IMG/VR virus record: IMGVR_UViG_3300026453_000533
Location: 1 to 64,000 of that record
Direction: 5' to 3' (one strand)
DNA from: an uncultured virus (IMG/VR IMGVR_UViG_3300026453_000533)
Taxonomy: Duplodnaviria > Heunggongvirae > Uroviricota > Caudoviricetes
Length of the DNA: 64,000 nucleotides
Within the stretch, counting starts at the first letter, position 1; each line of letters begins with the position of its first letter. A model generated the notes under the pieces. It saw only the letters and a list, made by a program, of their open reading frames with translations, had not been told where the DNA came from and ran no database searches. Below, piece after piece: positions 51,436 to 64,000 of the stretch. The translations under genes were made by a program, and so were the position numbers.

Positions 51436-51464
51436 TTGGAAATAACATTTATTATTCGTATATT
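51436..51464 (+). promoter_or_regulatory. TTG-N20-TATATT promoter
   Basis: Resumes the metabolic operon after the inserted structural gene. Confidence 0.7.
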
Positions 51465-51481
51465 ATAATAAAGAATAAGAT

Positions 51482-51616
51482 ATGTCCAAAACATCTAATA
51501 AGCAACGTTATATTCAAATTATGGAATGGTTAGGTACGTTGAATCAAAAATCTAACAGTAAGAAACAAACCAAATTTTCTAAAGCTAAACACTATAAATC
51601 TAAAGGAGTAAGATGA
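51482..51616 (+). CDS. Small basic hypothetical protein (44 aa, not in ORF track)
   Basis: MSKTSNKQRYIQIMEWL...KGVR; ATGA overlap with the thioredoxin gene; directly after a promoter. Confidence 0.55.
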   Translation: MSKTSNKQRYIQIMEWLGTLNQKSNSKKQTKFSKAKHYKSKGVR

Positions 51617-52224: not shown

Positions 52225-53013
52225 ATGGCACATTGTGTAGTAAGTTTAAGTGGTGGAATGGATAGTAGCACCCTATTGTTAAGAGCTATCGAGAAGTATG
52301 ATACCGTAACTGGTATCTCATTTGATTACGGTCAAAAACACAGAGTAGAGCTAGAGAGAGCTCAATCATTAATTGATTACCTTGCAAGTAAAGGACACAA
52401 AATAAATTATCGTCAAATTAAACTTGATGGTCTAGTAGATTTATTAGACTCAGCTTTAGTTACAGGTGGGGATGATGTACCAGAAGGACATTATGAGCAA
52501 GATAATATGAAAGAAACAGTTGTTCCTAATAGAAACAAAATGTTTGCTTCAATTACTCAAGCAGTTGCATTATCTGTAGCAAATAGAACAGAAGACGTTT
52601 GTGATATTGCTTTAGGTATTCATGCTGGTGATCATGCAGTTTATCCTGATTGTAGACAAGAATTTAGAGATGCAGATGATGCAGCTTTTAGAATTGGAAA
52701 CTGGGATGCAGATAGAGTAGGTTACTTTACACCTTATTTAGATACTGATAAATTTGGTATTCTACAAGATGGAGAAAAATTATGTGAAATTTTAGGTATT
52801 GATTTTGATGAAGTTTATAAGAGAACTAATACATCGTACAAACCCTATCCTAGTGGAAATTCCGATTATAAGTCTGCTTCTAGTGTTGAGAGGATTGAGG
52901 CTTTTATTGCTTTGGGGAGAAAAGATCCTGTACAGTATGAGGATGAAACTGGAGTGGTTGATTACGAAGTAGCAAAAACTCATGTTGAAAAAGTACTTGC
53001 TGACTATGTATAA
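52225..53013 (+). CDS. queC: 7-cyano-7-deazaguanine (preQ0) synthase
   Basis: SLSGGMDSST, FDYGQKH..E, VVPNRN, GIHAGD...YPDCR.EF. Confidence 0.93.
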   Translation: MAHCVVSLSGGMDSSTLLLRAIEKYDTVTGISFDYGQKHRVELERAQSLIDYLASKGHKINYRQIKLDGLVDLLDSALVTGGDDVPEGHYEQDNMKETVVPNRNKMFASITQAVALSVANRTEDVCDIALGIHAGDHAVYPDCRQEFRDADDAAFRIGNWDADRVGYFTPYLDTDKFGILQDGEKLCEILGIDFDEVYKRTNTSYKPYPSGNSDYKSASSVERIEAFIALGRKDPVQYEDETGVVDYEVAKTHVEKVLADYV

Positions 53014-53189: not shown

Positions 53190-53263
53190 GGGGGATTAGC
53201 TCAGCTGGCTAGAGCGCCTGCCTTGCACGCAGGAGGTCATCGGTTCGACTCCGATATTCTCCA
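53190..53263 (+). tRNA. tRNA-Ala(UGC), CCA not encoded
   Basis: GGGGGAT/ATTCTCC acceptor stem with G3:U70, TAGCTCAG D arm, CCTGC-CTTGCAC-GCAGG anticodon arm, GGTTCGACTCC T arm. Confidence 0.97.
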
Positions 53264-54792: not shown

Positions 54793-56541
54793 ATGAGTAG
54801 AATTAGAGTAAATAGCATTAAACCGATAAGCGGACAGATAGTAAGTCTATCCGGCAGTCTGATAGTTACAGGAGATGTAACTGCAGAACAATTTATAACG
54901 GAAAAAGTACAAACATCAATCATCTACAGATCAGGTTCTACTCTGTTTGGAGATTCTGCAGATGATCTACATAACTTCACAGGTTCAGTATTTGTTAGTG
55001 GAGGATTAGATTCTAATAAATCTATAACTCTAGGAGACGATATAAATCTTCAAAAGGGAGTTAACGGAGGAGGATTGTTAGAGGTACTACCGACTGATAC
55101 AGAAGGTTTACACGGTCTTCAATTAGCAGCAGAAACTACGTCTTCAAACGTAAACTATACTACTTTTTATAATAATAAATTTAGTATCTCTGAAGCAGGA
55201 AGAGATGGAGTAGCTGGTGGTAATGGAGAACATATTAAATTAGAAGACTACTATAAAGTAGAATCTGGTATTCCTACCAGATATGCAGGAATACAGATTA
55301 ACCATCCTTCTTCAAGTAGATTTAAATTAGGAGCAAATCTAAAAGAAGAAGCTGACTATCCTTTCTATGTAAATGCAGATAGTAAATTTAAAGGAGATTT
55401 ATCAATTACAGGTAGTACTTTTTTACTTGGTGATATAGATCACAATGGAGATACTGGTCAAAAAGGAGACTATACTAGAATTGGTACTCTTGATCAAGAA
55501 GGTACAGTAACAGTATCCAATGGAGATATAATACTTGCCACAGCAGGTAGAAAAATTGCAATAGATAGCAAACTAGATATATTCTCAGATGTAGCTGGAA
55601 ATTCACATATACAGGAAAAAGGATCTGGAGATCTATTAATAGTTTCAGATAATGAAGTTGAAATCAAATCAGGACAATTGGGAGAAACTTTTGCTAAGTT
55701 TACAAAAGATGGTCCTATTGAGCTTTATTATGATAATGCTAAAAAATTCTCAACTACTACTAATGGAATCGCGGTAACCGGTACTATATATGCTTCTGAT
55801 GATATAAATACCACTGGCAAAATATCAGCAGATAATGACATTGTCACAATTAGAAATATTAAAGCAGAATCTGGTCAATTATCGATAGCAGGATATAGCA
55901 ATGTCTCGGAATCTATAGCTAGATTAGATCACTTTAGTTCTTCTTTAGACAACTATTATGCTACAGACGCACAACTAGATAGTGTGTCTTCATCACTTGC
56001 TTTAGAAACAGCACATCTATTAAACTTTAGTTCTTCATTTGATAATATATATGCTTCTGAAGATGAATTATATACAGCTACAGCTTCTTTAGATGCTAGA
56101 ATTATAAGCTTAGAAAGTTTTAGTTCCTCTATAGATAGTGAGTATGCTACTGATGCACAGCTAGATGCAGTTTCAGCATCTTTTGCAGTCGTGACTACTG
56201 CCAATGTAGATGACATAGCAATTCTACAAACCGATGTAAGTAACAACAATGACGATATAGCTGCATTATCTGGTTCGCAACTAGGACTATTAGCAGCAAC
56301 AAGTTCATACGCTTTAAAAGCTGACATTACAGGTTCATTTACAATGCTGTCTGCTTCTATAGCACAATCGTGGACAGAAAATCATAACGATATTCACGAT
56401 TTAGAGCAGGATGCTTACACATTTGTACCATCAGCTTCTATTGAATTAAATTATGTTAGCAAAGCAAAATTAAGAGCTGCATTAACAGGGTCAACAAACT
56501 ACAATGACTTTACAGGTTCTTTATTAGCATTACTAGCATAA
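54793..56541 (+). CDS. Putative virion fibre protein
   Basis: SIIYRSGSTLFGDSADDLHNFTGS motif, ELYYDNAKKF.TT..GI.VTG fibre repeat, coiled-coil FSSS.D..YATDAQL repeats; TATTTATA at 54781. Confidence 0.65.
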   Translation: MSRIRVNSIKPISGQIVSLSGSLIVTGDVTAEQFITEKVQTSIIYRSGSTLFGDSADDLHNFTGSVFVSGGLDSNKSITLGDDINLQKGVNGGGLLEVLPTDTEGLHGLQLAAETTSSNVNYTTFYNNKFSISEAGRDGVAGGNGEHIKLEDYYKVESGIPTRYAGIQINHPSSSRFKLGANLKEEADYPFYVNADSKFKGDLSITGSTFLLGDIDHNGDTGQKGDYTRIGTLDQEGTVTVSNGDIILATAGRKIAIDSKLDIFSDVAGNSHIQEKGSGDLLIVSDNEVEIKSGQLGETFAKFTKDGPIELYYDNAKKFSTTTNGIAVTGTIYASDDINTTGKISADNDIVTIRNIKAESGQLSIAGYSNVSESIARLDHFSSSLDNYYATDAQLDSVSSSLALETAHLLNFSSSFDNIYASEDELYTATASLDARIISLESFSSSIDSEYATDAQLDAVSASFAVVTTANVDDIAILQTDVSNNNDDIAALSGSQLGLLAATSSYALKADITGSFTMLSASIAQSWTENHNDIHDLEQDAYTFVPSASIELNYVSKAKLRAALTGSTNYNDFTGSLLALLA

Positions 56542-56560
56542 AAATAATTTAAAAAAAACT

Positions 56561-56591
56561 AAGGGGATAGTTGCTTACTATCCCTTTTTTT
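56561..56591 (+). terminator. Rho-independent terminator overlapping the next promoter
   Basis: GGGATAGT-TGCTT-ACTATCCC plus a T tract. Confidence 0.85.
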
Positions 56592-56599
56592 ATTATATT
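56571..56599 (+). promoter_or_regulatory. TTG-N20-TATATT promoter for the queD/queE operon
   Basis: Fixed spacing. Confidence 0.7.
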
Positions 56600-56618
56600 A
56601 TAAGTAATATAAGACTAT

Positions 56619-56645
56619 AGTGTCGTAGCACCACTTTAAAAACAC
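56619..56645 (+). ncRNA. preQ1-I-like riboswitch aptamer (copy 1)
   Basis: P1 AGTG/CACT, loop TCGTAGCAC, tail TTAAAAACAC; ends 4 nt before the ATG at 56650. Confidence 0.65.
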
Positions 56646-56649
56646 CAAT

Positions 56650-56883
56650 ATGAGTAAAAAAGCAAATACTCTGTATAAAGATACGGAGTTTAAAAAACAA
56701 AAAGGTTCTATTGAGATCGACGGACAGAAAATACCTGATCCGAAACTTCACCAAAGAATTTCATTTTTAAAATCAGCTATTAGGCTAGGAGCATGTGCTT
56801 TTGGCTTCTTTGGTATGTTTGAATTAGGCTTTATAGGTCTATTTTTAGCAGAAATAGTTGGAATAGGGGAAGAATTAGTTTAA
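56650..56883 (+). CDS. Small membrane protein, first gene of the queD/queE operon
   Basis: Hydrophobic C-terminal hairpin AIRLGACAFGFFG...GFIGLFLAEIVGIGEELV. Confidence 0.7.
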   Translation: MSKKANTLYKDTEFKKQKGSIEIDGQKIPDPKLHQRISFLKSAIRLGACAFGFFGMFELGFIGLFLAEIVGIGEELV

Positions 56884-56892
56884 ATTAAAGAT

Positions 56893-57357
56893 ATGGGAAA
56901 ATTTCAATCAAGTAAAGTATTCGACGGGTTCTCTACTGTGTTCCGTCAATGGAAAGCAGAAGATACACATTGTAGGTTTGTTCACGGCTACGGAGTAGCA
57001 TTTAAAGTATATTTTGAAGGAGAATTAGACTACAGAAACTGGGTATGGGACTTCGGAGGTATGAAAAGAGCTAAGACTAAAATAGATGGCTTATCTCCTA
57101 AGCAATGGATGGATTATATGTTCGACCATACCTTCATAGTTGCTCAGGACGACCCCTATTTAGATAAATTTCTACATATGGGATTATCAGAAGTAGCACA
57201 AATCAGAGTTATACCTGCTACCGGAGCAGAAAAATTTGCAGAATATATTTTTAATAAATTAAATGATTTTGTAGAAGAAGAAACAGAAGGTAGAGTTAAG
57301 GTGACGAAAGTAAAATTTATGGAACACGGAAAAAACGCAGCTTATTATGTCGCATAA
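56893..57357 (+). CDS. queD: 6-carboxy-5,6,7,8-tetrahydropterin synthase
   Basis: HCRFVHGY, WVWDFG, FDH, E..A..I, V.F.EH..N.A.Y. Confidence 0.9.
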   Translation: MGKFQSSKVFDGFSTVFRQWKAEDTHCRFVHGYGVAFKVYFEGELDYRNWVWDFGGMKRAKTKIDGLSPKQWMDYMFDHTFIVAQDDPYLDKFLHMGLSEVAQIRVIPATGAEKFAEYIFNKLNDFVEEETEGRVKVTKVKFMEHGKNAAYYVA

Positions 57358-58135
57358 ACAATTAAAAAGAATAGAAGATTACGAAAAGAACTTACCGATT
57401 GTAGAAGTTTATACTGCAGTACAGTCAGAAGGTTCAAGAGCAGGGTACCCAACTATAGTAATTAGAACTACTGGCTGTACCCATAGATGTTACTTTGGAG
57501 AAGGAGGCTGGTGTGATAGCTGGTATACTTCAATCCATCCAGAAAAAGGTCAATTTAATTTTAACGATATTATACAAAAGTATAAAGATAACCCCCATAT
57601 TAAAGAAATGATGCTAACAGGAGGTTCTCCTACAATGCATCCAGCTTTGGTAAACGAATTAACACACTTTGCAAATGAGAATAATATATTTATTACTATC
57701 GAAACTGAAGGTAGTCACTTTCTACCCACAGATTACCCTATTAATCTGCTATCTATTAGCCCTAAGTTTTCTAATTCTGTTCCAGTCATTGGCGTAGAGA
57801 CTCCTCAAGGAGGGATTACTGACGAAAGAATGATAAAGCAGCATAATAAGTTTAGACTTAATTATGATGCTATAGAAGAAAGTATCAATTACCACTCTGA
57901 CTATCATTTAAAACCTGTATGGGATGGTAAAGATGAAAAAGCTTTAGAGGAAATAATGACCTGTATTTACAGGTTAAAAATACCTAAAAGTAAGGTATGG
58001 TTTATGCCTGCAGGAGATTCAAGGGAAGCATTATTTAAATCTTATCCGGTATTATTTGATTGGGTTAGAGATAATGGTTATAGAATGACTTGGAGACCGC
58101 ATATCATTGCTTTTGAAGATCAACGTGAAGTATAA
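57347..58135 (+). CDS. queE: 7-carboxy-7-deazaguanine synthase (radical SAM)
   Basis: VQSEG..AG.P...IRT.GCTHRC......WCDS, LTGG.P, IETEG, SISPK. Confidence 0.9.
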   Translation: MSHKQLKRIEDYEKNLPIVEVYTAVQSEGSRAGYPTIVIRTTGCTHRCYFGEGGWCDSWYTSIHPEKGQFNFNDIIQKYKDNPHIKEMMLTGGSPTMHPALVNELTHFANENNIFITIETEGSHFLPTDYPINLLSISPKFSNSVPVIGVETPQGGITDERMIKQHNKFRLNYDAIEESINYHSDYHLKPVWDGKDEKALEEIMTCIYRLKIPKSKVWFMPAGDSREALFKSYPVLFDWVRDNGYRMTWRPHIIAFEDQREV

Positions 58136-58269
58136 TGACTAAAGACGAAGCTTTAGAGATATTAGAAGAAGTAGAAGAAAATATTAATACATGCTGTGCT
58201 ATTACTATGGAACCAGACGATGTACTAGTATTAATAGATAAACTAAAAATTTTTATAAATGAATTATAG
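58135..58269 (+). CDS. Small acidic hypothetical protein (44 aa, not in ORF track)
   Basis: TAATG coupling to queE; MTKDEALEILEEVEENINTCCAITMEP... Confidence 0.55.
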   Translation: MTKDEALEILEEVEENINTCCAITMEPDDVLVLIDKLKIFINEL

Positions 58270-58561
58270 TAATATTTTAGAAGATTTAGACCGTAAGGTG
58301 TACTTTTTAAATAGTCCTATTTGGGATTATAAACTATCTGGGAATACCTTAGAATTAATTACAATGGACTCCATACAGACCTTAGATTTGATGAACTTGG
58401 AAAATCATAGCTGTACTGTTAGGGAATTAGTAGAATATGTTAACGAAGAAGGTCTTGACTTCAAAGATATAAGAATCGTAAGTGAAGAAACAGGACAAGA
58501 AGTTGTTGACTATGCAATTAAGTATAACATAGTACATTTATCAACGTTAATATTAAAGTAA
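58259..58561 (+). CDS. Hypothetical protein
   Basis: In-operon ORF. Confidence 0.55.
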   Translation: MNYSNILEDLDRKVYFLNSPIWDYKLSGNTLELITMDSIQTLDLMNLENHSCTVRELVEYVNEEGLDFKDIRIVSEETGQEVVDYAIKYNIVHLSTLILK

Positions 58562-58564
58562 GAT

Positions 58565-58984
58565 ATGACTCCAAAAAAAGTATTCGTTACCTGGAACGAT
58601 ATAGACCACCAGGTAGAAAAATTAGCAAATAAAATTAAAAATGTAGATTACGTAGTAGGTATACCGAGAGGAGGTTTAGTAGTAGCAGTCATTATGTCTC
58701 ATAAACTGGGGATAAAGCACATAACTATAGACCATCTAGAAAAGTTAGAGGAGTTTAACCTTAATATAGATAAGAAAAAAATATTAATAGTGGATGATAT
58801 ATCCGACTCTGGACAGACCCTCAAACACTTTAAGAAACAGGGATACACAACAGCTACATTAGACGTAAGAAACACTACAGTAACAAAACCAGACTTCTAC
58901 TGCAATTGGTTAGAAACTACTGATTGGATCGTGTACCCATGGGAGAAAAAAGATTCAAAAACAATTCAAGATTATTTGGATTAA
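58565..58984 (+). CDS. Type I phosphoribosyltransferase (xanthine-guanine PRT-like)
   Basis: VVGIPRGGL, ILIVDDISDSGQTL PRPP loop, WIVYPWE. Confidence 0.9.
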   Translation: MTPKKVFVTWNDIDHQVEKLANKIKNVDYVVGIPRGGLVVAVIMSHKLGIKHITIDHLEKLEEFNLNIDKKKILIVDDISDSGQTLKHFKKQGYTTATLDVRNTTVTKPDFYCNWLETTDWIVYPWEKKDSKTIQDYLD

Positions 58985-59004
58985 TGAATAAAAGTTCTTA
59001 TATT
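58976..59004 (+). promoter_or_regulatory. TTG-N20-TATATT promoter for the folE operon
   Basis: Fixed spacing. Confidence 0.7.
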
Positions 59005-59016
59005 AAGTTATAGTAA

Positions 59017-59044
59017 TGAGTCGTAGAACCTCAATAAAAACATA
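59017..59044 (+). ncRNA. preQ1-I-like riboswitch aptamer (copy 2)
   Basis: P1 TGAG/CTCA, loop TCGTAGAAC, tail ATAAAAACATA; ends 9 nt before the folE ATG. Confidence 0.65.
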
Positions 59045-59053
59045 AATTATATT

Positions 59054-59767
59054 ATGCCAAAAAAGTTTATAAAAGGAACAGAATTAGTAAAAGCCGGTTT
59101 CGCTAACGGTATTTCAACTCAATTAGCAGAAAAACAAAAGCTGGAAGGACCAGAAGCAAGACTTACTGATCATGAAAAACAAGTAATTATAGAAAGAGCA
59201 GCAAAGGCTTATGCAGAGTTCCTTACCGCTTTAGGATGTGATTATGCAGCAGATCCTAACTCTGCAGATACACCATTTAGGGTAGCTAAAGCATATGTTA
59301 ACGATTTATGGGCTGGAAGATATAGCCCTTTAGATAAGATTACAGCTTTTCCTTCAGACGGGTATGACGGTATCGTACAAGAGAGTAACATACCAGTAAC
59401 GTCTATGTGTTCGCATCATCATCAAGCTATTAGAGGCACAGTAAGTATTGCTTATATAGCTTCAGAAGATGGTAAGGTAGTAGGACTATCTAAACTAAAT
59501 AGAATAGTAGAACAATTCGGTAGAAGAGGAGCTATTCAAGAGCAGTTAACTGTAGCTATACATAATGCAGTAGATAAGATATGTGAAGGCAATTTAGGAG
59601 TAGCAGTTCAAGTTAATGCAACTCACGCTTGTGTTTCCTGTAGAGGAGTTAAGCATGGAGGAGCATCAATGCAAACAGCTAAACTAACTGGAGCCTTTTT
59701 AGATGAACCATCAGCTAAAGCTGAGTTTTATAAGAATATAGAATTAGCAGAGAAATGCAATCATTAG
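59054..59767 (+). CDS. folE: GTP cyclohydrolase I
   Basis: TP.RVAK, SMCSHH, VVGLSKLNR, QEQLT, HACVSCRGV. Confidence 0.95.
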   Translation: MPKKFIKGTELVKAGFANGISTQLAEKQKLEGPEARLTDHEKQVIIERAAKAYAEFLTALGCDYAADPNSADTPFRVAKAYVNDLWAGRYSPLDKITAFPSDGYDGIVQESNIPVTSMCSHHHQAIRGTVSIAYIASEDGKVVGLSKLNRIVEQFGRRGAIQEQLTVAIHNAVDKICEGNLGVAVQVNATHACVSCRGVKHGGASMQTAKLTGAFLDEPSAKAEFYKNIELAEKCNH

Positions 59768-60198
59768 AACACGATGAAAGACCTTGGGGTTGCTACGATG
59801 TACTATTAGATACTGACTTTACTAAAGTTAAACTAATCACCGTAGCTCCAGGTAAGAGATTATCCTATCAGTCTCATGAGAAGAGACAAGAGCAATGGAC
59901 TCTAGTAAGTGGAGAGTTAACTGTCATTAGAGATGGTGATGAATACTCTCTAGATAATCCTGGTGAATCTATAACCATACCTTGCTGCAGTAAACATAGA
60001 GCTTGGAATAAAACTGATAAACCAGTACAATTTATAGAAGTGCAAACCGGAGATTATTTCGGAGAAGATGATATCATTAGATATCAAGACGATTGGGATC
60101 GTGGTATATACGATCATTTAGACGATTTAGTAGACAGAAAAGAAAAACAACTCATCAATAAAACAGATTGGTGGAAAAAAATGAGTAAAAATGGGTAA
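59755..60198 (+). CDS. Cupin (mannose-6-phosphate isomerase type II C-terminal-like)
   Basis: ERPWG.Y, LSYQSH..R.E.W, HR..N, IEVQTG.YFGEDDI.R..DD. Confidence 0.85.
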   Translation: MQSLEHDERPWGCYDVLLDTDFTKVKLITVAPGKRLSYQSHEKRQEQWTLVSGELTVIRDGDEYSLDNPGESITIPCCSKHRAWNKTDKPVQFIEVQTGDYFGEDDIIRYQDDWDRGIYDHLDDLVDRKEKQLINKTDWWKKMSKNG

Positions 60199-60694
60199 AC
60201 AACTATCATTATTCCGAGAAACAGATTACGTACCATTTGTTTCTGAAGTAGAAGAATTTAATGCCACATTTGGCAAACCAAATAACTATGAACCGACTAT
60301 ACCAGAGAAGAAAGAGTGGCAGTTCGTATATGACTTTATACTCGAAGAGCTTGAAGAATATAGAGAAGCGTGTGAGAACGGAGACATCGTTGAAGTTTTG
60401 GACGCTTTGTGCGACATTGCTTATGTTTCCCTTGGGAACGGTACTATGTTACACGGCCTTAAGGATAAGATATGGCCAGCATATCAAGAGGTACAGGCTT
60501 CTAATATGTCTAAAGCTTGTAAAACTGAAGAAGAAGCAAAAGAAACTGTCGCCGTCAGGTCTAAAGCTTATAATGAAGAATGTCATTATGAAAAAGTAGA
60601 AGACTTGTATATTGTATACAGAACAAGAGATAGAAAAGTAATGAAATCAGTTAATTACTTTAGACCTAATTTAAAAAAGTTTTTCAATGAGTAA
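60191..60694 (+). CDS. MazG-like NTP pyrophosphohydrolase
   Basis: EELEEY......DIVEVLDALCDIAYV, EVQASNMSK. Confidence 0.85.
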   Translation: MGKQLSLFRETDYVPFVSEVEEFNATFGKPNNYEPTIPEKKEWQFVYDFILEELEEYREACENGDIVEVLDALCDIAYVSLGNGTMLHGLKDKIWPAYQEVQASNMSKACKTEEEAKETVAVRSKAYNEECHYEKVEDLYIVYRTRDRKVMKSVNYFRPNLKKFFNE

Positions 60695-60887
60695 GGGTAC
60701 TAATTTAGAGGATTACATTATAACAGTAGACGGAAAAGAATATGTGCCGCTAGAAATTGCTCAACAGGCTGTCAAAGAAGTATTCACGTATGATAAAAAA
60801 CTTAATACGGAAATGAATAAATTAGACGGCTATGTAAGATATATTTCAAATATTTTAGACGATACGTTTAAGGAAGGTAAAGAGTAA
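60687..60887 (+). CDS. Hypothetical protein
   Basis: In-operon ORF overlapping the upstream stop. Confidence 0.55.
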   Translation: MSKGTNLEDYIITVDGKEYVPLEIAQQAVKEVFTYDKKLNTEMNKLDGYVRYISNILDDTFKEGKE

Positions 60888-60905
60888 AAATCAAAAATAA
60901 GTTAT

Positions 60906-61733
60906 ATGAATATAAAAATTGCACACGAAAGTCCTAAAAGTATTTTTGATGAAGTTCAAAAGTATACAGACTACGATTACGCTTTAGTACATTTATTTGA
61001 AGAAGATGAAGAATACTTGGCTCAATTTAAAAAAGCAGTAAGTAAAGGTAGAGAGGTTATTTTAGATAATTCTATTTTTGAATTAGAAGAAGCTTTCGAT
61101 GCAGATAAATTTAATAGATGGGTTAACGAACTTAAACCTTCCTGGTATATAGTTCCAGATGCTTTGGAAGATGCTCAAAAAACATGCGATCAGATGGAGG
61201 ATTGGATTAATAAAGGGTATGGATATAAGGGAAGCGGTAAAATAGGTGTAGTACAAGGTAAATCCTATGATGAAATTGTAGATTGCTACAACTATATGAA
61301 TAAATCAGCAGATGTAGATATGATAGCTATTTCTTTTGATTACTCGTACTACACACAGTCAGTTCCTCATGCTAACAAGTATGTTAGTTGGATGCTAGGA
61401 CGTGTTAAGCTACTAGGAGACTTACTTAGAGATGGAGTAATTAATCAAACTAAACCTCATCATCTCCTCGGCTGTGGGCTTCCTCAAGAATTTAGTTTTT
61501 ATAAGCACTCTGATTACGACTGGATATACTCTTTAGATACTTCAAATCCTGTAGTTCACGGTATTAAAAATATAACATATAGATCAGACGGATTATGGTC
61601 TAAAGAGAGACAAAAATTACATGAACTTATTAACTCTGATATATCAATAGAGCAATTAGGTACAATTAAAAATAATATACAAAAATTTAGATGGTTTACA
61701 AATGGGAGACAAACTTTGGATAGCATTCTTTAG
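60906..61733 (+). CDS. dpdA: TGT-fold 7-deazaguanine transglycosylase (DpdA-family, divergent)
   Basis: ILDNSIFE (cf. TGT DSGxF), PD, GVVQG, HHLLGCG, SLDTSNP; inside the que cluster. Confidence 0.7.
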   Translation: MNIKIAHESPKSIFDEVQKYTDYDYALVHLFEEDEEYLAQFKKAVSKGREVILDNSIFELEEAFDADKFNRWVNELKPSWYIVPDALEDAQKTCDQMEDWINKGYGYKGSGKIGVVQGKSYDEIVDCYNYMNKSADVDMIAISFDYSYYTQSVPHANKYVSWMLGRVKLLGDLLRDGVINQTKPHHLLGCGLPQEFSFYKHSDYDWIYSLDTSNPVVHGIKNITYRSDGLWSKERQKLHELINSDISIEQLGTIKNNIQKFRWFTNGRQTLDSIL

Positions 61734-62244
61734 TCAGACAGGGACTGAAATAGTAGATATAGCAAAGGCATTTGGTAGATGGCCTGATAAAATAATTACT
61801 AATCAAAGACCTGAGCATTTAAGAAAAATAAATGATGAATTACTCGATATGGATATTATTTTCCTGCCGAATAAACCATCAGTAGAGGATTATGATGTAG
61901 TGTTAGAAGATAATGCTTTAGTTACTTTACACGGGTGGTTAAGAGTTATGCCTCCTTCTATATGTAGAAAATACCTTATCTATAATGGGCATCCAGGGCT
62001 CATAACTGAATATCCAGAACTGAAAGGTAAAGATCCTCAAGTAAGAGCTTTCGAAGGTATTAAAGAAGGTAAATATCCTACAGCAGGTGCAGTATTGCAT
62101 AAAGTAGTAGCTGAGGTTGATGAAGGAAGAATTATTGCTGAAGAAAAATTTAATACTTTTCAGTTGGAATTAGATGATTTATTTCGTATATTAAGAGATA
62201 GAAGCTTGTATATGTGGTGCAATTTTTTGAGACAAATTTTATAG
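61702..62244 (+). CDS. PurN-like formyltransferase (candidate DpdN, preQ1 formyltransferase)
   Basis: FFSQTGTE (cf. SG.GSN), LHGWLRV, YNGHPGL, G.VLH.V...VDEG.II. Confidence 0.8.
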   Translation: MGDKLWIAFFSQTGTEIVDIAKAFGRWPDKIITNQRPEHLRKINDELLDMDIIFLPNKPSVEDYDVVLEDNALVTLHGWLRVMPPSICRKYLIYNGHPGLITEYPELKGKDPQVRAFEGIKEGKYPTAGAVLHKVVAEVDEGRIIAEEKFNTFQLELDDLFRILRDRSLYMWCNFLRQIL

Positions 62245-62247
62245 AAA

Positions 62248-62427
62248 ATGAATATAGATAAAGAATTTTATTTAGTAAGAAAAAGTGAAGGTAATTCATT
62301 TCAAAGATTAATGATGTTTTTTTTAGATCAAAATAAAAAATATGGTGCTGACTTTGGAATAGCAGGTATGTATAATACATTAAATAGGTTTTATGATAAC
62401 AAGAATAGCATTAGTAGGAGCAAGTAG
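62248..62427 (+). CDS. Possible small hypothetical protein (59 aa, not in ORF track)
   Basis: ATG 3 nt after the upstream stop; fills the gap but overlaps the next gene by 35 nt. Confidence 0.35.
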   Translation: MNIDKEFYLVRKSEGNSFQRLMMFFLDQNKKYGADFGIAGMYNTLNRFYDNKNSISRSK

Positions 62428-62911
62428 TACAGGTAAGACTACTGTTTATGAACTACTTAAAAATAAATTACCTAAATATGAATTCGTAAACGAATCTACT
62501 AGAACTGTTGGTAGTTATGGATTTCCTATCAACGAAGAAGGTACTTGTGCTACTCAGTTAGCTATTAGTAGCTTTCATTTAGAAGCTTTACTTCAACCTT
62601 ATAACTTAGTATTAGATAGATGTTATATGGATGTGGTAGTTTATACTAAGTTTATGAAAGGAGTAACTTCACATACTTACAGCTATATAGAAGATACTTG
62701 GAATAGGGTAAAAAATGAATATACTCATTATATTTACTTTCCTATTGAATTTGATTCTGTAGATGATGGAGTAAGAAGTATAAGTGAAGAATGGAGAAAA
62801 GAAGTAGATGATGAGTTTCAAGCAGTGTTAGAAGGTGTACGTCAGCCTTATCTCACTATAACTGGTTCTCCTATGCAAAGAGTAGAACAAATAATGGAAT
62901 TTATAAAATGA
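62393..62911 (+). CDS. P-loop nucleotide kinase-like protein (NadR/AAA_28-like)
   Basis: GASSTGKTT, E..R, LDRC.MD...Y, DDGVR. Confidence 0.8.
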   Translation: MITRIALVGASSTGKTTVYELLKNKLPKYEFVNESTRTVGSYGFPINEEGTCATQLAISSFHLEALLQPYNLVLDRCYMDVVVYTKFMKGVTSHTYSYIEDTWNRVKNEYTHYIYFPIEFDSVDDGVRSISEEWRKEVDDEFQAVLEGVRQPYLTITGSPMQRVEQIMEFIK

Positions 62912-63513
62912 ATAAATTAGAATCTTCAGAAAAATTATTATTATTTGCAATAATATTTTTTATAACAATATTTGTAACATCAACGTTAAATGCACAGATA
63001 GTAGAAACTGAAACATTTAAAGTAGAGTACGATCAAAAACTACAACAGCCATTATGGGTGGAGTATACTATAACTTGCCCTAACGGTAAGGAATCTAGAC
63101 ATGGAATGGATTTTTGGATTCCGGAAGGTTATGATACATCCGATAATGAGGACTATAAAAACAATATTTGGGATAAAGGACACCTTGCTCCTGCAGCTTC
63201 TTTTAGCTGTACTGAAGAATCCTTACGAAGCACGTTTTCTTACTTTAATTCTGCATTACAGCACGAAGGGTTAAATAGGGGACAGTGGAGTAGATTAGAA
63301 GCATTTGAAAGAGATGCAGCTAAATTTTTTAATACTGATATACATGTAAGAGTGGAGTTAGTATTTACAGACGAGTCAGAAGTATTAAGAACTGGTGCTA
63401 CGGTACCTTCTAGTTTTATTAAGACTATTACTATTGGCGATATTAAACGAAAATTTGTATTTCCTAATAGAGATACAAAAGGAACTAATTGGATTGATTA
63501 TATTAAAGAATAA
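62908..63513 (+). CDS. DNA/RNA non-specific endonuclease with N-terminal signal peptide
   Basis: WDKGHLAPA, TF.YFN..LQ...LNRG.W..LE; hydrophobic N-terminus ending LNA-Q. Confidence 0.88.
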   Translation: MNKLESSEKLLLFAIIFFITIFVTSTLNAQIVETETFKVEYDQKLQQPLWVEYTITCPNGKESRHGMDFWIPEGYDTSDNEDYKNNIWDKGHLAPAASFSCTEESLRSTFSYFNSALQHEGLNRGQWSRLEAFERDAAKFFNTDIHVRVELVFTDESEVLRTGATVPSSFIKTITIGDIKRKFVFPNRDTKGTNWIDYIKE

Positions 63514-63518
63514 AAAAA

Positions 63519-64000
63519 ATGGCAGAAGTTAAAAATTATCAAGAAGTAGTAGACATAGCGTCTAAACATTTAGGAAAAGTAGGAGGAGACGGGTATAAAG
63601 ATACCTACGCTCCAGAATTATTAGTTAAAGTACCTCGATACTTAAATAGAGAAGGTTACGGTTTGACAGATAAAGACTTTGTTGGAGTAGATACCTGGAA
63701 CTGTTACGAAGTTTCGGCTATTACTAGTAAAGGATTACCTGTAGCAGGTATGTTAAAAATAGTATGCCCTTCAGATTCTGAATATCACGTGGAATCTAAA
63801 TCTATTAAGCTATATTTAAATTCTTTTAATATGACTAGATTAGGAGATACAGCTGTAGAATGTATTTTAGAGATTGAGGGAAGGGTAAAAGCTGATTTAG
63901 ATAAGTTACTTGAAACTAATACTACTGTGAGTTTTTACACTGATTTAGATGATGGCAAAGAATTATCTTTTGAAGGATATACAGATTTAGGTGATATAGT
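63519..64000 (+). CDS. queF: preQ0 reductase (bimodular QueF), 3'-truncated by the window edge
   Basis: Translated by hand: MAEVKNY...LGK......Y.PELLV.VPR..NR...GVDTWNCYEVS.....GLP...VESKSIKLYLNSFN. Confidence 0.9.
   Translation, partial: MAEVKNYQEVVDIASKHLGKVGGDGYKDTYAPELLVKVPRYLNREGYGLTDKDFVGVDTWNCYEVSAITSKGLPVAGMLKIVCPSDSEYHVESKSIKLYLNSFNMTRLGDTAVECILEIEGRVKADLDKLLETNTTVSFYTDLDDGKELSFEGYTDLGDI

What the first reader, a model, noticed from the sequence alone, without database searches (positions are those of the whole stretch)
56619..59044. Two covarying preQ1-I-like riboswitch aptamers controlling the phage 7-deazaguanine DNA-modification operons
Seen: two intergenic elements, AGTG-TCGTAGCAC-CACT-TTAAAAACAC (56619-56645) and TGAG-TCGTAGAAC-CTCA-ATAAAAACAT (59017-59043). 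The 4-bp stems differ in sequence but both pair, while the loop UCGUAG(C/A)AC and the tail UAAAAACA are conserved. Each lies between a TTG-N20-TATATT promoter and the first start codon of an operon: membrane protein-queD-queE-PRTase, and folE-cupin-MazG-dpdA-formyltransferase-kinase-nuclease-queF. Established: class I preQ1 aptamers are small H-type pseudoknots with a short P1, a U...AG..AC loop ending in the ligand-pairing C, and an A-rich tail ending AAAAC. The T. tengcongensis aptamer, recalled as CUGGG-UCGCAGUAAC-CCCAG-UUAACAAAACAAG, has this layout. Inference: the phage senses preQ1/preQ0 or a derivative and feedback-limits GTP flux into modified-base synthesis. The A-rich tail overlaps or abuts the A-rich initiation region used by SD-less Bacteroidota, so ligand binding could block translation without sequestering an SD. 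I do not know of a described phage riboswitch controlling DNA hypermodification. Caveats: P1 is 4 bp and the loop is 1 nt shorter than canonical, so the ligand could differ or the element could be a protein-binding operator.
Basis: partly seen in the sequence, partly recalled or inferred. Interest (0 to 1): 0.93.

Follow-up and report, generated by a model that had tools for sequence, protein, structure and literature searches.

The report
Miniature preQ1-type riboswitch pair in phage
Two copies of a tiny conserved RNA hairpin with an A-rich tail sit just before the phage genes that start synthesis of the modified guanine it puts in its DNA; they look like a shrunken preQ1 riboswitch, and the same element also precedes queuosine genes in some marine bacteria.

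Summary
Both 27-nt elements (56619-56645, 59017-59043) lie between a recurrent phage promoter box and the first start codon of the queD-queE and folE-dpdA-queF operons.

The motif is a real, widespread family. Of 128 viral loci matching a loose pattern, 82 hold FolE, QueD or QueE homologues, and all 82 have the 4-bp stem; 32 chance matches have neither. Three of the four stem pairs covary. The loop UCGUAGNAC and tail UAAAAACA are invariant in the pattern-selected set.

New here, and contrary to earlier scan notes that call it phage-only: the same aptamer precedes queC in Thalassospira and queD-queE in Vibrio and Marinomonas, with a different stem (CCUG/CAGG) and different expression platforms.

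Rfam's PreQ1 model RF00522 detects neither the phage nor the bacterial copies, so membership by that model fails. The layout and conserved bases do match type II preQ1-I aptamers (Tte, Bsu).

Best reading (about 0.78): a compact preQ1-I-like OFF switch that senses preQ1 or preQ0 and blocks SD-independent translation initiation. Ligand binding, the P2 pseudoknot and the transcription start are untested. This scan found the phage motif before on other DNA. My searches found no paper describing it.

The parts
56563..56591 (+). Terminator-like hairpin (GGGGATAG/CTATCCC plus a T-run) ending the upstream 582-aa gene. Its loop holds the TTG of the next promoter.
   Evidence: Read directly from the sequence. 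The hairpin is drawn in weak Rfam alignments.
56571..56599 (+). Promoter-like site 1: TTG (56571-56573), 20 bases, TATATT (56594-56599).
   Evidence: TTG-N19-21-TATATT occurs 14 times on the + strand, against 2.5 per strand in mononucleotide shuffles.
56619..56645 (+). Aptamer-like element 1. P1 5' strand 56619-56622 (AGUG); loop 56623-56631 (UCGUAGCAC, candidate specificity C at 56631); P1 3' strand 56632-56635 (CACU); A-rich tail 56636-56643 (UUAAAAAC); AC 56644-56645.
   Evidence: covariance model R1 scores 54.4 bits; covariation.
56650..56883 (+). First gene of operon 1: a 77-aa protein of a conserved, virus-only small-protein family. Its start codon lies 6 nt after the tail's C.
   Evidence: No Pfam or PHROG family.
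56893..57357 (+). queD (6-carboxytetrahydropterin synthase-like, PTPS fold).
   Evidence: Pfam PF01242, 54.4 bits.
57347..58135 (+). queE (radical-SAM 7-carboxy-7-deazaguanine synthase-like).
   Evidence: Pfam Radical_SAM, 29.3 bits, just under the 29.5 cut-off. NCBIfam QueE models match below their cut-offs. Syntenic with the annotated QueE of immuto.
58565..58984 (+). Phosphoribosyltransferase, last gene of operon 1.
   Evidence: Pfam PF00156; phrog_8995.
58976..59004 (+). Promoter-like site 2: TTG (58976-58978), 20 bases, TATATT (58999-59004), within the exact box TTCTTATATT.
59017..59043 (+). Aptamer-like element 2. P1 5' strand 59017-59020 (UGAG); loop 59021-59029 (UCGUAGAAC, candidate specificity C at 59029); P1 3' strand 59030-59033 (CUCA); tail 59034-59041 (AUAAAAAC); AU 59042-59043.
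   Evidence: R1 scores 43.7 bits; the P1 hairpin is the predicted minimum-free-energy fold.
59054..59767 (+). folE (GTP cyclohydrolase I), first gene of operon 2. Its start codon lies 12 nt after the tail's C.
   Evidence: Pfam PF01227, 142.6 bits.
59755..63998 (+). Rest of operon 2: cupin, MazG-like, a 66-aa ORF, dpdA (60906-61733), a DpdN-like formyltransferase (61702-62244), a 59-aa ORF, an AAA_28 kinase, a nuclease, and queF (63519 to the window end).

Best explanation
Each element is the aptamer of a compact class-I (type-II-like) preQ1 riboswitch at the 5' end of an mRNA. A 4-bp P1 helix closes a 9-nt loop, UCGUAG(N)AC. [quoted passage not shown] The tail (U/A)UAAAAAC would lie in the minor groove of P1, and its C would pair with the loop G to close an H-type pseudoknot over the ligand.

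When free preQ1 (or preQ0) accumulates faster than DpdA puts it into DNA, the folded pseudoknot ends only 6 nt (operon 1) or 12 nt (operon 2) before the AUG. It then ties up the A-rich, unstructured initiation region that SD-blind Bacteroidota ribosomes need. Translation of the first committed enzymes (FolE; QueD and QueE) falls, which limits the drain on GTP.

Shown here: the anatomy, the position, the conservation, P1 covariation, the strict link to 7-deazaguanine genes, and bacterial homologues. Inferred: the ligand, the P2 contact, the OFF direction and the translational mechanism.
For: 1. Position. Both elements lie between a recurrent phage promoter box and the first AUG. Their leaders run 49-50 nt from box to AUG, against 6-33 nt at six other boxes of the window. 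That is roughly one aptamer longer.

2. Family and gene link. 96 of 128 viral loci matching a loose pattern have the 4-bp stem. 82 of 128 hold FolE, QueD or QueE homologues by tblastn, and all 82 have the stem. None of the 32 stemless loci has such a gene. In all 33 loci with enough downstream sequence that I sent to Pfam, the first to third ORF is GTP_cyclohydroI, PTPS or Radical_SAM.

3. Retrieval by protein. 54 of 80 loci fetched through FolE similarity carry the motif directly before folE.

4. Covariation. Among 62 distinct instances, pair 1 is AU 36, CG 11, GC 9, UA 6. Pair 2 is GC 51, CG 11. Pair 3 is UA 52, AU 10. Pair 4 is GC in all 62. There are no one-sided changes, and sliding the register destroys the pairing. 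In the FolE-retrieved set, 99% of 100 cells pair.

5. Bacterial homologues. 26 Thalassospira or Rhodospirillales loci carry the aptamer. In the 16 distinct rows that one search printed far enough, the ORF that follows starts with the same residues as the two I identified: QueC above the NCBIfam cut-off (L136) and Pfam QueC (L137). It precedes queD-queE in 4 Vibrio and 2 Marinomonas loci (I annotated one leader of each genus), and queD in 5 further genomes of G003's family (by N-terminus only). The flanks are ordinary chromosomal genes and the expression platforms differ.

6. Match to known aptamers. Set by eye against the Tte and Bsu aptamers printed in PMC10639078, the loop reads UCG(C/U)AG..AC and the tail A-run ends in C. 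'AC before the 3' strand of P1' is the type II signature, with that C as the specificity base (PMC11625349 and PMC10622847 passages).

7. Physiological sense. The relative phage immuto replaces dG completely with formyl-dPreQ1 (bioRxiv 10.1101/2023.04.13.536721 passages), so flux control is plausible.

8. Host translation. Bacteroidetes initiation is tuned by mRNA structure and upstream adenines, not by SD sequences (PMC6847099 abstract).
Against: Rfam RF00522 does not detect the phage elements: no match at the gathering score and none at E<=10 even in a 41-nt search. It does not detect the bacterial ones either (at E<=1; 0 of 5 genomes over the cut-off, and no sub-threshold match at the motif).

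P2 cannot be shown. Only one invariant G-C contact is available. The variable loop position 4 (U, A or G) shows no clear partner.

The hairpin is thermodynamically marginal (-1.5 to -3.9 kcal/mol, z-scores -0.2 to -0.95). For the isolated 32-nt element 1, the minimum-free-energy fold is a competing GUGU/GCAC hairpin.

The element is dispensable. 26 of 80 FolE-homologue loci gave no model hit, although 2 of these carry variant forms seen by eye. 71 of 80 QueD-homologue loci also gave none.

It was not found in 151 sampled Bacteroidota genomes, though that is a weak test.

There are no ligand-binding, reporter or transcription-start data. The RNA-library contigs do not settle whether the element is transcribed.
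Confidence: 0.78

Rival explanations
1. It is a riboswitch of this fold, but the ligand in the phage is not preQ1. It could be preQ0, 7-carboxy-7-deazaguanine, formyl-preQ1 or guanine. The shortened L2 and P1 would retune specificity or affinity to the very high fluxes of an infected cell.
For: L2 is 1 nt shorter and P1 is 1 bp shorter than in Tte and Bsu. The phage end product is formylated. Known type II and III aptamers discriminate preQ1 from preQ0 only 17- to 138-fold (PMC10622847 passage).
Against: The identical loop and tail serve queC or queD-queE leaders in bacteria whose loci show ordinary queuosine genes and no DpdA or DpdN within the 3 kb I fetched. The window encodes QueF, so free preQ1 is expected.
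Confidence: 0.12
2. It is a protein-bound RNA operator. A phage or host translational repressor would recognise the hairpin loop and the A-rich tail, as in other phage translational operators. No metabolite would be sensed directly.
For: The hairpin is small and weak on its own. Loop and tail are sequence-invariant while the stem varies, as in protein-recognised hairpins.
Against: The same element occurs in Alpha- and Gammaproteobacteria and in phages of Flavobacteriia. No shared neighbouring gene other than the que genes was seen in the flanks of the two bacterial loci examined or among the annotated phage ORFs. The expression platforms also differ. The invariant bases coincide with the pocket positions of solved preQ1-I aptamers.
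Confidence: 0.06
3. It is a conserved leader with a constitutive role, such as a translation enhancer, an mRNA-stabilising 5' hairpin or a processing site. It would be linked to these genes only by common descent of the operons.
For: Many relatives lack it and still have the promoter and the genes. Most phage copies are closely related to each other.
Against: Common descent does not explain the presence before non-homologous first genes (folE, the small ORF, queD, queE, and bacterial queC). It does not explain the spread across phyla with compensatory stem changes either.
Confidence: 0.04

Closest known systems
preQ1-I riboswitch, type II, translational (Thermoanaerobacter tengcongensis, Tte)
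   Same: The order of parts is the same: P1, loop beginning UCG.AG, 'AC' immediately before the 3' strand of P1, and an A-rich tail ending in C just upstream of the start codon. Set against the sequence in PMC10639078, the loop UCGCAG-UAAC compares with UCGUAG-(C/A)AC, and the tail UUAACAAAAC with (U/A)UAAAAAC. Both are leaders of 7-deazaguanine pathway or transport genes and presumed OFF switches acting on translation.
   Different: P1 is 4 bp, not 5. L2 is 1 nt shorter and L3 is 2 nt shorter. No Shine-Dalgarno sequence is available to be sequestered. P2 beyond one G-C contact is not evident. Rfam RF00522 gives no match. The host is a phage, and the regulated product goes into DNA, not tRNA.
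preQ1-I riboswitch, type II, transcriptional (Bacillus subtilis queC leader, Bsu)
   Same: The loop contains UAG followed by ..AC, and the tail AUAAAAAAC resembles AUAAAAAC of element 2. It controls queCDEF biosynthesis genes, like the bacterial copies found here.
   Different: Bsu has a 12-nt loop and a CUA that pairs with UAG to form P2, and it acts through a terminator. The phage leaders have no CUA and no terminator.
preQ1-I riboswitch, type III (E. coli yhhQ leader; PMC10622847)
   Same: It has a compact hairpin loop, an 'AC' specificity motif and an A-rich 3' tail, and it acts on translation.
   Different: Type III has a pyrimidine-rich loop, UU after the 5' strand of P1 and a longer linker. 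It buries an AAGG Shine-Dalgarno sequence in P2 and regulates the yhhQ transporter, almost only in Gammaproteobacteria. None of these features holds here.

Membership tests
preQ1-I riboswitch (Rfam RF00522) | Score at or above the family's gathering threshold (39 bits) with the Rfam covariance model | tested here: not met
   There is no RF00522 match at either element at the gathering score or at E<=10 in 161-, 151- and 41-nt searches. The only RF00522 hit (17.1 bits) lies on an unrelated A-run at 56541-56568. The bacterial copies are also missed.
preQ1-I riboswitch (Rfam RF00522) | P1 helix supported by covariation | tested here: met
   P1 is 4 bp rather than 5. Three of the 4 pairs show changes on both sides, with none on one side only, in 62 distinct instances (those rows were pre-selected for pairing). 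In FolE-retrieved leaders, 99% of 100 cells pair.
preQ1-I riboswitch, type II | 'AC' immediately before the 3' strand of P1, the C being the ligand-specificity base (PMC11625349, PMC10622847) | tested here: met
   A16 and C17 of the alignment are invariant in 62 of 62 instances, though the search pattern fixed these two bases. They are also kept in the variant leaders fetched through FolE similarity, independently of the pattern.
preQ1-I riboswitch (Rfam RF00522) | A-rich 3' tail (L3) following P1 | tested here: met
   The tail is (U/A/G/C)UAAAAAC in the pattern-selected set. In FolE-retrieved leaders the length varies from 6 to 9 nt before the C.
preQ1-I riboswitch (Rfam RF00522) | P2: an H-type pseudoknot between the loop and the 3' tail | tested here: inconclusive
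   The loop G and the tail C are both invariant, so no covariation is possible. The next tail base, A, is invariant whatever the loop base at position 4 (U, A or G). No consistent 3-4-bp P2 was found.
preQ1-I riboswitch (Rfam RF00522) | Location in 5' leaders of preQ1/queuosine biosynthesis or transport genes | tested here: met
   Phage copies precede folE, queD or queE. Bacterial copies precede queC or queD-queE, with QueC, QueD and QueE above the NCBIfam cut-offs.
preQ1-I riboswitch (Rfam RF00522) | Selective binding of preQ1 | not testable with these tools
   This needs ITC, in-line probing or a structure.
preQ1-I riboswitch, type III | Pyrimidine-rich loop, UU after the 5' strand of P1, and an AAGG SD buried in P2 | tested here: not met
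   The loop is UCGUAGNAC and the base after P1 is U then C. No AAGG follows the tail, compared with the description in PMC10622847.
preQ1-I riboswitch, type I | 'UC' before the 3' strand of P1 and UU atop the 5' strand | tested here: not met
   AC, not UC, precedes the 3' strand in every instance. The feature is as described in PMC11625349.
DUF805 RNA (Rfam RF03081) | Score at or above the gathering threshold (51.1 bits) | tested here: not met
   The match is 17.4 bits, E = 0.44, over 56615-56664, with the loop and a 19-nt segment skipped. There is no match at element 2.

The most novel reading that the evidence does not exclude
This is a fourth, minimal subtype of the class I preQ1 riboswitch: about 25-27 nt, with a 4-bp P1 and a 9-nt loop. 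That would make it the smallest natural metabolite-sensing aptamer. Rfam's model misses it. It is shared between marine Proteobacteria, where it controls queC or queD-queE for tRNA queuosine, and phages of Flavobacteriia. In the phages it has been turned to feedback control of complete guanine replacement in DNA, and it represses translation without any Shine-Dalgarno sequence by folding the A-rich initiation region.
Probability: 0.55. Interest if true: 0.88.

Novelty: new variant of a known kind. Interest (0 to 1): 0.8.

Why it matters
If ligand binding is confirmed, this would link riboswitch control to phage DNA hypermodification. Six full-text searches found no paper making that link, and the paper on the immuto modification pathway contains no occurrence of 'riboswitch'.

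It would shrink the smallest known natural aptamer further. It would also give a natural case of riboswitch control in an SD-blind translation system.

It exposes a blind spot of the Rfam PreQ1 model that also hides bacterial queC and queDE riboswitches. A better model would improve annotation.

The bacterial copies in culturable Vibrio, Marinomonas and Thalassospira give ready experimental systems, alongside phage immuto and its Flavobacterium host.

Tried and rejected
**Rfam.**
- The whole window at gathering scores gives only a tRNA.
- Permissive scans of both leaders and of a 41-nt piece give no PreQ1 match on the elements.
- The weak DUF805 RNA match (17.4 against 51.1 bits) is rejected as chance.

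**Thermodynamic folding.**
- The hairpins are no more stable than in shuffled sequences. This is uninformative for so small a ligand-dependent fold.

**Search for P2.**
- A register pairing UCGU with ACGA fits Thalassospira and some phage leaders.
- It fails in the folE class.
- It would also remove the loop's first U, which by my recall contacts the ligand in Tte. I rejected it as a general feature.

**RNA evidence.**
- Six metatranscriptome runs hold the stretch. Four of them were laid, and all four are kept only as assembled contigs.
- One contig covers 56620-56970.
- Contigs bridge element 2 (58943-59217; 58129-59210).
- An RNA library can contain DNA and contigs cannot show starts. The uncovered 56495-56619 in X15 and the contig ends are therefore not used as evidence.

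**Other phages and host-phylum genomes.**
- Cellulophaga phages phiST and phi13:1, which have queD-queE-folE, have no such element.
- A scan of 151 sampled Bacteroidota genomes with the model found nothing, under strict filters that scored only 46 candidates per genome. This is no evidence of absence.

**Literature.**
- McCown et al. 2014, the paper that defined the types, is not held. I could not check whether 4-bp-P1 variants were in its alignments.

**Earlier scan notes.**
- The notes calling the family phage-only are contradicted.
Full report
**1. Observation**

- Element 1 is AGTG-TCGTAGCAC-CACT-TTAAAAACAC at 56619-56645, with the ATG of a 77-aa ORF at 56650.
- Element 2 is TGAG-TCGTAGAAC-CTCA-ATAAAAACAT at 59017-59043, with the ATG of folE at 59054.
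- The stems differ at pairs 1 (A-U against U-A) and 3 (U-A against A-U), and both still pair.
- The loop differs only at its 7th base, and the tail only at its first.

Gene content is confirmed by Pfam, NCBIfam and PHROGs.
- Operon 1 is the small ORF, QueD (PTPS), QueE (radical SAM), two small ORFs and a PRTase.
- Operon 2 is FolE, a cupin, a MazG-like protein, a 275-aa protein, a formyltransferase, an AAA_28 kinase, a non-specific nuclease and QueF.
- A queC-like gene lies earlier in the window (52225-53013) behind its own promoter box and carries no element.

The window is the first 64 kb of a 116-kb viral record. Its closest named relatives are the immuto phages; the more distant ones are Cellulophaga phages phiST and phi13:1.

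**2. Promoter context**

TTG-N20-TATATT is present before both elements.
- It belongs to a recurrent box, roughly GTTG-N17-18-TTC(T/G)TATATT. It occurs 14 times on the + strand as TTG-N19-21-TATATT, against 2.5 per strand in mononucleotide shuffles.
- At six other boxes the ATG follows 6-33 nt after the box. At the two elements it follows after 49-50 nt.
- The leaders are therefore about one aptamer longer, and the elements should lie inside the transcript. This is an inference, because no transcription start has been mapped.

Relatives exist whose folE leader has the box and the ATG but no element (L199, L201, L205, L231). The element is thus a discrete, dispensable module and not part of the promoter.

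**3. A family, tied to 7-deazaguanine genes**

- For 15 specified bases that number is near what I estimate chance alone would give in a collection of this size. The estimate is my own and comes from no call.
- The hits nevertheless split cleanly.
  - 96 of 128 have a 4-bp stem directly flanking the loop.
  - 82 of 128 contain a FolE, QueD or QueE homologue (tblastn E<=1e-5), and all 82 have the stem.
  - The 14 with a stem but no such gene are short loci, 461-1436 nt.
  - 32 have neither. At least one of these, L085, looks like a true member with a 3-bp stem in a short locus.
- I sent ORFs from 33 loci with enough downstream sequence to Pfam. I had left out near-duplicate loci.
  - folE came first in 9.
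  - A small ORF (or two) followed by queD-queE came in 20.
  - queD came first in 2.
  - A queE-like radical-SAM gene came first in 2.

Retrieval by protein, independent of the motif, gave two results.
- 54 of 80 FolE-homologue loci have a model hit ending within a few bases of the folE start.
- Only 9 of 80 QueD-homologue loci do. In most of the others queD sits inside a longer operon behind a thioredoxin-like gene.

In the whole 116-kb record the model scores 54.4 and 43.7 bits at the two sites and at most 14.9 bits elsewhere.

**4. RNA structure**

- In 62 distinct 35-nt instances, phage and bacterial, the four P1 pairs are as follows.
  - Pair 1: AU 36, CG 11, GC 9, UA 6.
  - Pair 2: GC 51, CG 11.
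  - Pair 3: UA 52, AU 10.
  - Pair 4: GC 62.
- There are no one-sided changes and no unpaired cells. Sliding the 3' partners by 1-3 columns drops pairing to 24-65%.
- Those rows were pre-filtered for pairing. The fairer figures come from the gene-context test above and from the FolE-retrieved set of 25 distinct leaders. In that set 99 of 100 cells pair, with pair 1 as UA 12, GC 9, AU 3, and pair 3 as AU 16, UA 9.
- Complementarity is kept while the sequence changes, and the loop and tail are asymmetric. This argues for an RNA hairpin and against a DNA operator.
- The invariant top pair G-C, the loop UCG.AG.AC and the tail A-run plus C form the conserved core.
- Natural variants in FolE leaders include the loops UUGAAGCAC, UCGGAGCAC and UCGAAGAAC, and tails of 6-9 nt before the C.
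- Loop position 4 is therefore free, and the base after the tail's C is always A.
- I could not find a covarying partner for position 4, so P2 rests on a single invariant G...C contact.
- Thermodynamic folding is uninformative.

**5. Bacterial homologues**

An 18-base version of the pattern scanned over one genome per species gave 37 loci. Thirty-four have the 4-bp stem, here CCUG/CAGG.
- 26 are Thalassospira or Rhodospirillales loci.
  - In the 16 distinct rows that one search printed far enough, the ORF that follows starts MKTIVVCSGG; the other 10 rows are identical copies or too short to show it.
  - In L136 that ORF is QueC, at 187.9 bits against a cut-off of 150.3. L137 matches Pfam QueC.
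- 4 Vibrio and 2 Marinomonas loci have it before queD-queE. In the two leaders I annotated (L139, Vibrio; L161, Marinomonas), QueD scores 94.3 and 90.6 bits against a cut-off of 89.25, and QueE scores 288.3 and 316.9 bits against 206.1.
- 2 lie on one 5.9-kb contig binned as a Verrucomicrobiales MAG. It carries both phage-type leaders and looks like a phage fragment.
- The 3 remaining hits are chance.

The flanking genes are ordinary chromosomal ones: a ubiE-like methyltransferase in L137 and a chemotaxis receptor in L152.

The model finds exactly one site per genome in three of these bacteria. It finds 6 of 151 sampled genomes of the family that G003 (Vibrio albus, by its record title) belongs to, G003 itself included. 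In all 6 the ORF that follows begins like QueD; these were not checked against a family model.

In Vibrio and Marinomonas the aptamer is followed by three parts.
- The first is a variable hairpin, often with a U-run.
- The second is an invariant GUGCUGCAUUGU.
- The third is a 9-bp hairpin that pairs UGCAUUGU with ACAAUGCA next to the AGGA ribosome-binding site (these pairs are invariant, so they show no covariation).

GUGCUGC is also complementary to the aptamer loop GUAGCAC. That would give the mutually exclusive pairings of a classical expression platform. This last point is my inference.

One aptamer with three different downstream read-outs in three lineages is what a metabolite-sensing RNA predicts, and what a lineage-specific protein operator does not. 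It also contradicts the earlier scan notes that describe the family as phage-only.

**6. Comparison with what is known**

The aptamers printed in PMC10639078 (methods passage) can be set by eye against the two elements:

| Aptamer | P1 5' | Loop, first part | Loop, second part | P1 3' | Tail | After the tail |
|---|---|---|---|---|---|---|
| Tte | CUGGG | UCGCAG | UAAC | CCCAG | UUAACAAAAC | AAGGG |
| Bsu | AGAGG | UUCUAG | CUACAC | CCUCU | AUAAAAAAC | UAAGG |
| Element 1 | AGUG | UCGUAG | CAC | CACU | UUAAAAAC | ACC.. |
| Element 2 | UGAG | UCGUAG | AAC | CUCA | AUAAAAAC | AUA.. |

- Relative to Tte, P1 is 1 bp shorter, L2 is 1 nt shorter and L3 is 2 nt shorter. A shorter L3 fits a shorter helix to span; that is my inference.
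- The review PMC11625349 (passages) defines type II by 'AC' before the 3' strand of P1, with that C as the specificity base.
- The same review describes a pocket ceiling built on a canonical G-C pair plus a loop cytosine and an L3 adenine.
- PMC10622847 (passages) describes the poly-A tail as lying in the P1 minor groove and forming the pocket floor.
- The phage motif keeps a base at each of these positions. The residue-by-residue mapping to Tte numbering is from my recall, not from a call.
- Type I (UC, UU) and type III (pyrimidine-rich loop, AAGG SD, yhhQ) signatures are not met.

Membership by Rfam's model is not met.
- RF00522 gives no match at gathering scores or at permissive thresholds on the elements.
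- It gives none on eight bacterial loci.
- In five bacterial genomes that carry the motif, no RF00522 match passes the cut-off and none of the weak ones lies at the motif (only 150 candidates per genome were scored).
- I therefore file the element as something that works like, and very probably descends from or converges on, preQ1-I type II. It is not a member as Rfam currently defines the family.

**7. Mechanism**

- Phage immuto replaces dG completely with 7-formylaminomethyl-7-deazaguanine. It encodes FolE, QueD, QueE, QueC, QueF, DpdA3 and the formyltransferase DpdN (bioRxiv 10.1101/2023.04.13.536721 passages). The window encodes the same set.
- The pathway therefore has to convert a large share of the GTP pool into free preQ1 base.
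- The two elements sit on the entry enzymes (FolE; QueD and QueE), not on queC or the later genes.
- The tail's C lies 6 nt (element 1) and 12 nt (element 2) from the AUG. Across the family the gap is about 4-13 nt.
- Bacteroidetes ribosomes ignore SD sequences. Their initiation is tuned by mRNA structure and upstream adenines (PMC6847099 abstract).
- The most likely working is as follows. With little ligand the weak hairpin and the A-rich leader are open and translation starts. With ligand the pseudoknot docks the A-run onto P1 and puts a stable fold within the ribosome's landing site, so initiation falls.
- All of this paragraph is inference from anatomy and from the behaviour of solved relatives.

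**8. Novelty**

- Full-text searches for phage preQ1 riboswitches, for riboswitch with DpdA, for riboswitch with immuto, and for preQ1 riboswitches in Thalassospira, Marinomonas or Vibrio found no description.
- The review on the preQ1 family contains neither 'phage' nor 'virus'.
- The paper that defined the types (McCown et al. 2014) is not held. I cannot exclude that some 4-bp-P1 bacterial members were in its alignments.
- This scan has noted the phage motif several times on other DNA.
- The additions here are the bacterial copies, their expression platforms, the third covarying pair, and the demonstration that RF00522 misses both sets.

**Verdict:** a real feature and a new compact variant of a known riboswitch kind. 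Ligand binding is still to be shown.

Noticed in passing
window 56650-56883 (and L006, L009, L010, L016, L022, L031, L032, L038, L039, L050, L061, L063, L065, L068, L074, L088, L097): The first gene behind element 1 belongs to a conserved small-protein family of 61-107 aa. The N-terminus is variable. The C-terminal part is strongly conserved (PDPKLHQ.VSFIKSGIRI, a hydrophobic stretch, then SEIVGIIEELV at the very end). It has no Pfam or PHROG family, and only virus-only 'hypothetical protein' clusters turn up in the ESM Atlas. It nearly always heads the riboswitch-controlled queD-queE operon, and its function is unknown.
   Followed up: partly
window + strand: 5803, 16711, 20720, 23442, 26505, 36974, 37224, 38820, 41816, 51436, 55556, 56571, 58976, 62164: A recurrent promoter-like box, roughly GTTG-N17-18-TTC(T/G)TATATT, occurs 14 times on the + strand as TTG-N19-21-TATATT, against 2.5 per strand in shuffles. 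Several copies sit only 6-20 nt before an ATG, which suggests very short leaders for many genes of this phage.
   Followed up: partly
L139, L147, L152, L160, L161, L162, L337-L340 (Vibrio and Marinomonas queD leaders): Downstream of the bacterial aptamer lie a variable hairpin (often with a U-run), an invariant GUGCUGCAUUGU, and a 9-bp hairpin with ACAAUGCA next to the AGGA ribosome-binding site. GUGCUGC is also complementary to the aptamer loop GUAGCAC, so the two pairings would exclude each other, as in a classical expression platform.
   Followed up: partly
L154 and L155 (contig NYWG01000135.1, 5.9 kb, binned as a Verrucomicrobiales MAG): This contig carries both phage-type leaders (AGTG and TGAG versions, with the phage promoter box) about 2.3 kb apart. 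It looks like a fragment of a related phage placed in a bacterial bin.
   Followed up: no
window 52225-53013 and 51436-51482: The queC-like gene (130.6 bits to TIGR00364, below its 150.3-bit cut-off) lies in a separate unit behind its own promoter box, without the aptamer. Only the entry steps (folE, queD-queE) carry the element.
   Followed up: partly
window 53190-53263: There is a tRNA gene (Rfam RF00005, 66.8 bits) between the queC-like gene and the next ORF. The anticodon was not checked with ARAGORN.
   Followed up: no
window 56609-56658, in the RNA-library contigs of runs X16 and X18: Contigs from co-occurring relatives match the window only from 56609 onward (X16) or only up to 56658 (X18), and diverge outside. 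The aptamer plus start codon is thus a conserved island between a variable promoter-proximal region and a variable small-ORF N-terminus.
   Followed up: no
window 56620-56631: In element 1 and other C-loop members, GUGU and GCAC can form a competing 4-bp hairpin with a CGUA loop. This is the predicted minimum-free-energy fold of the isolated 32-mer. It may be incidental, or it may be a ligand-free alternative.
   Followed up: no
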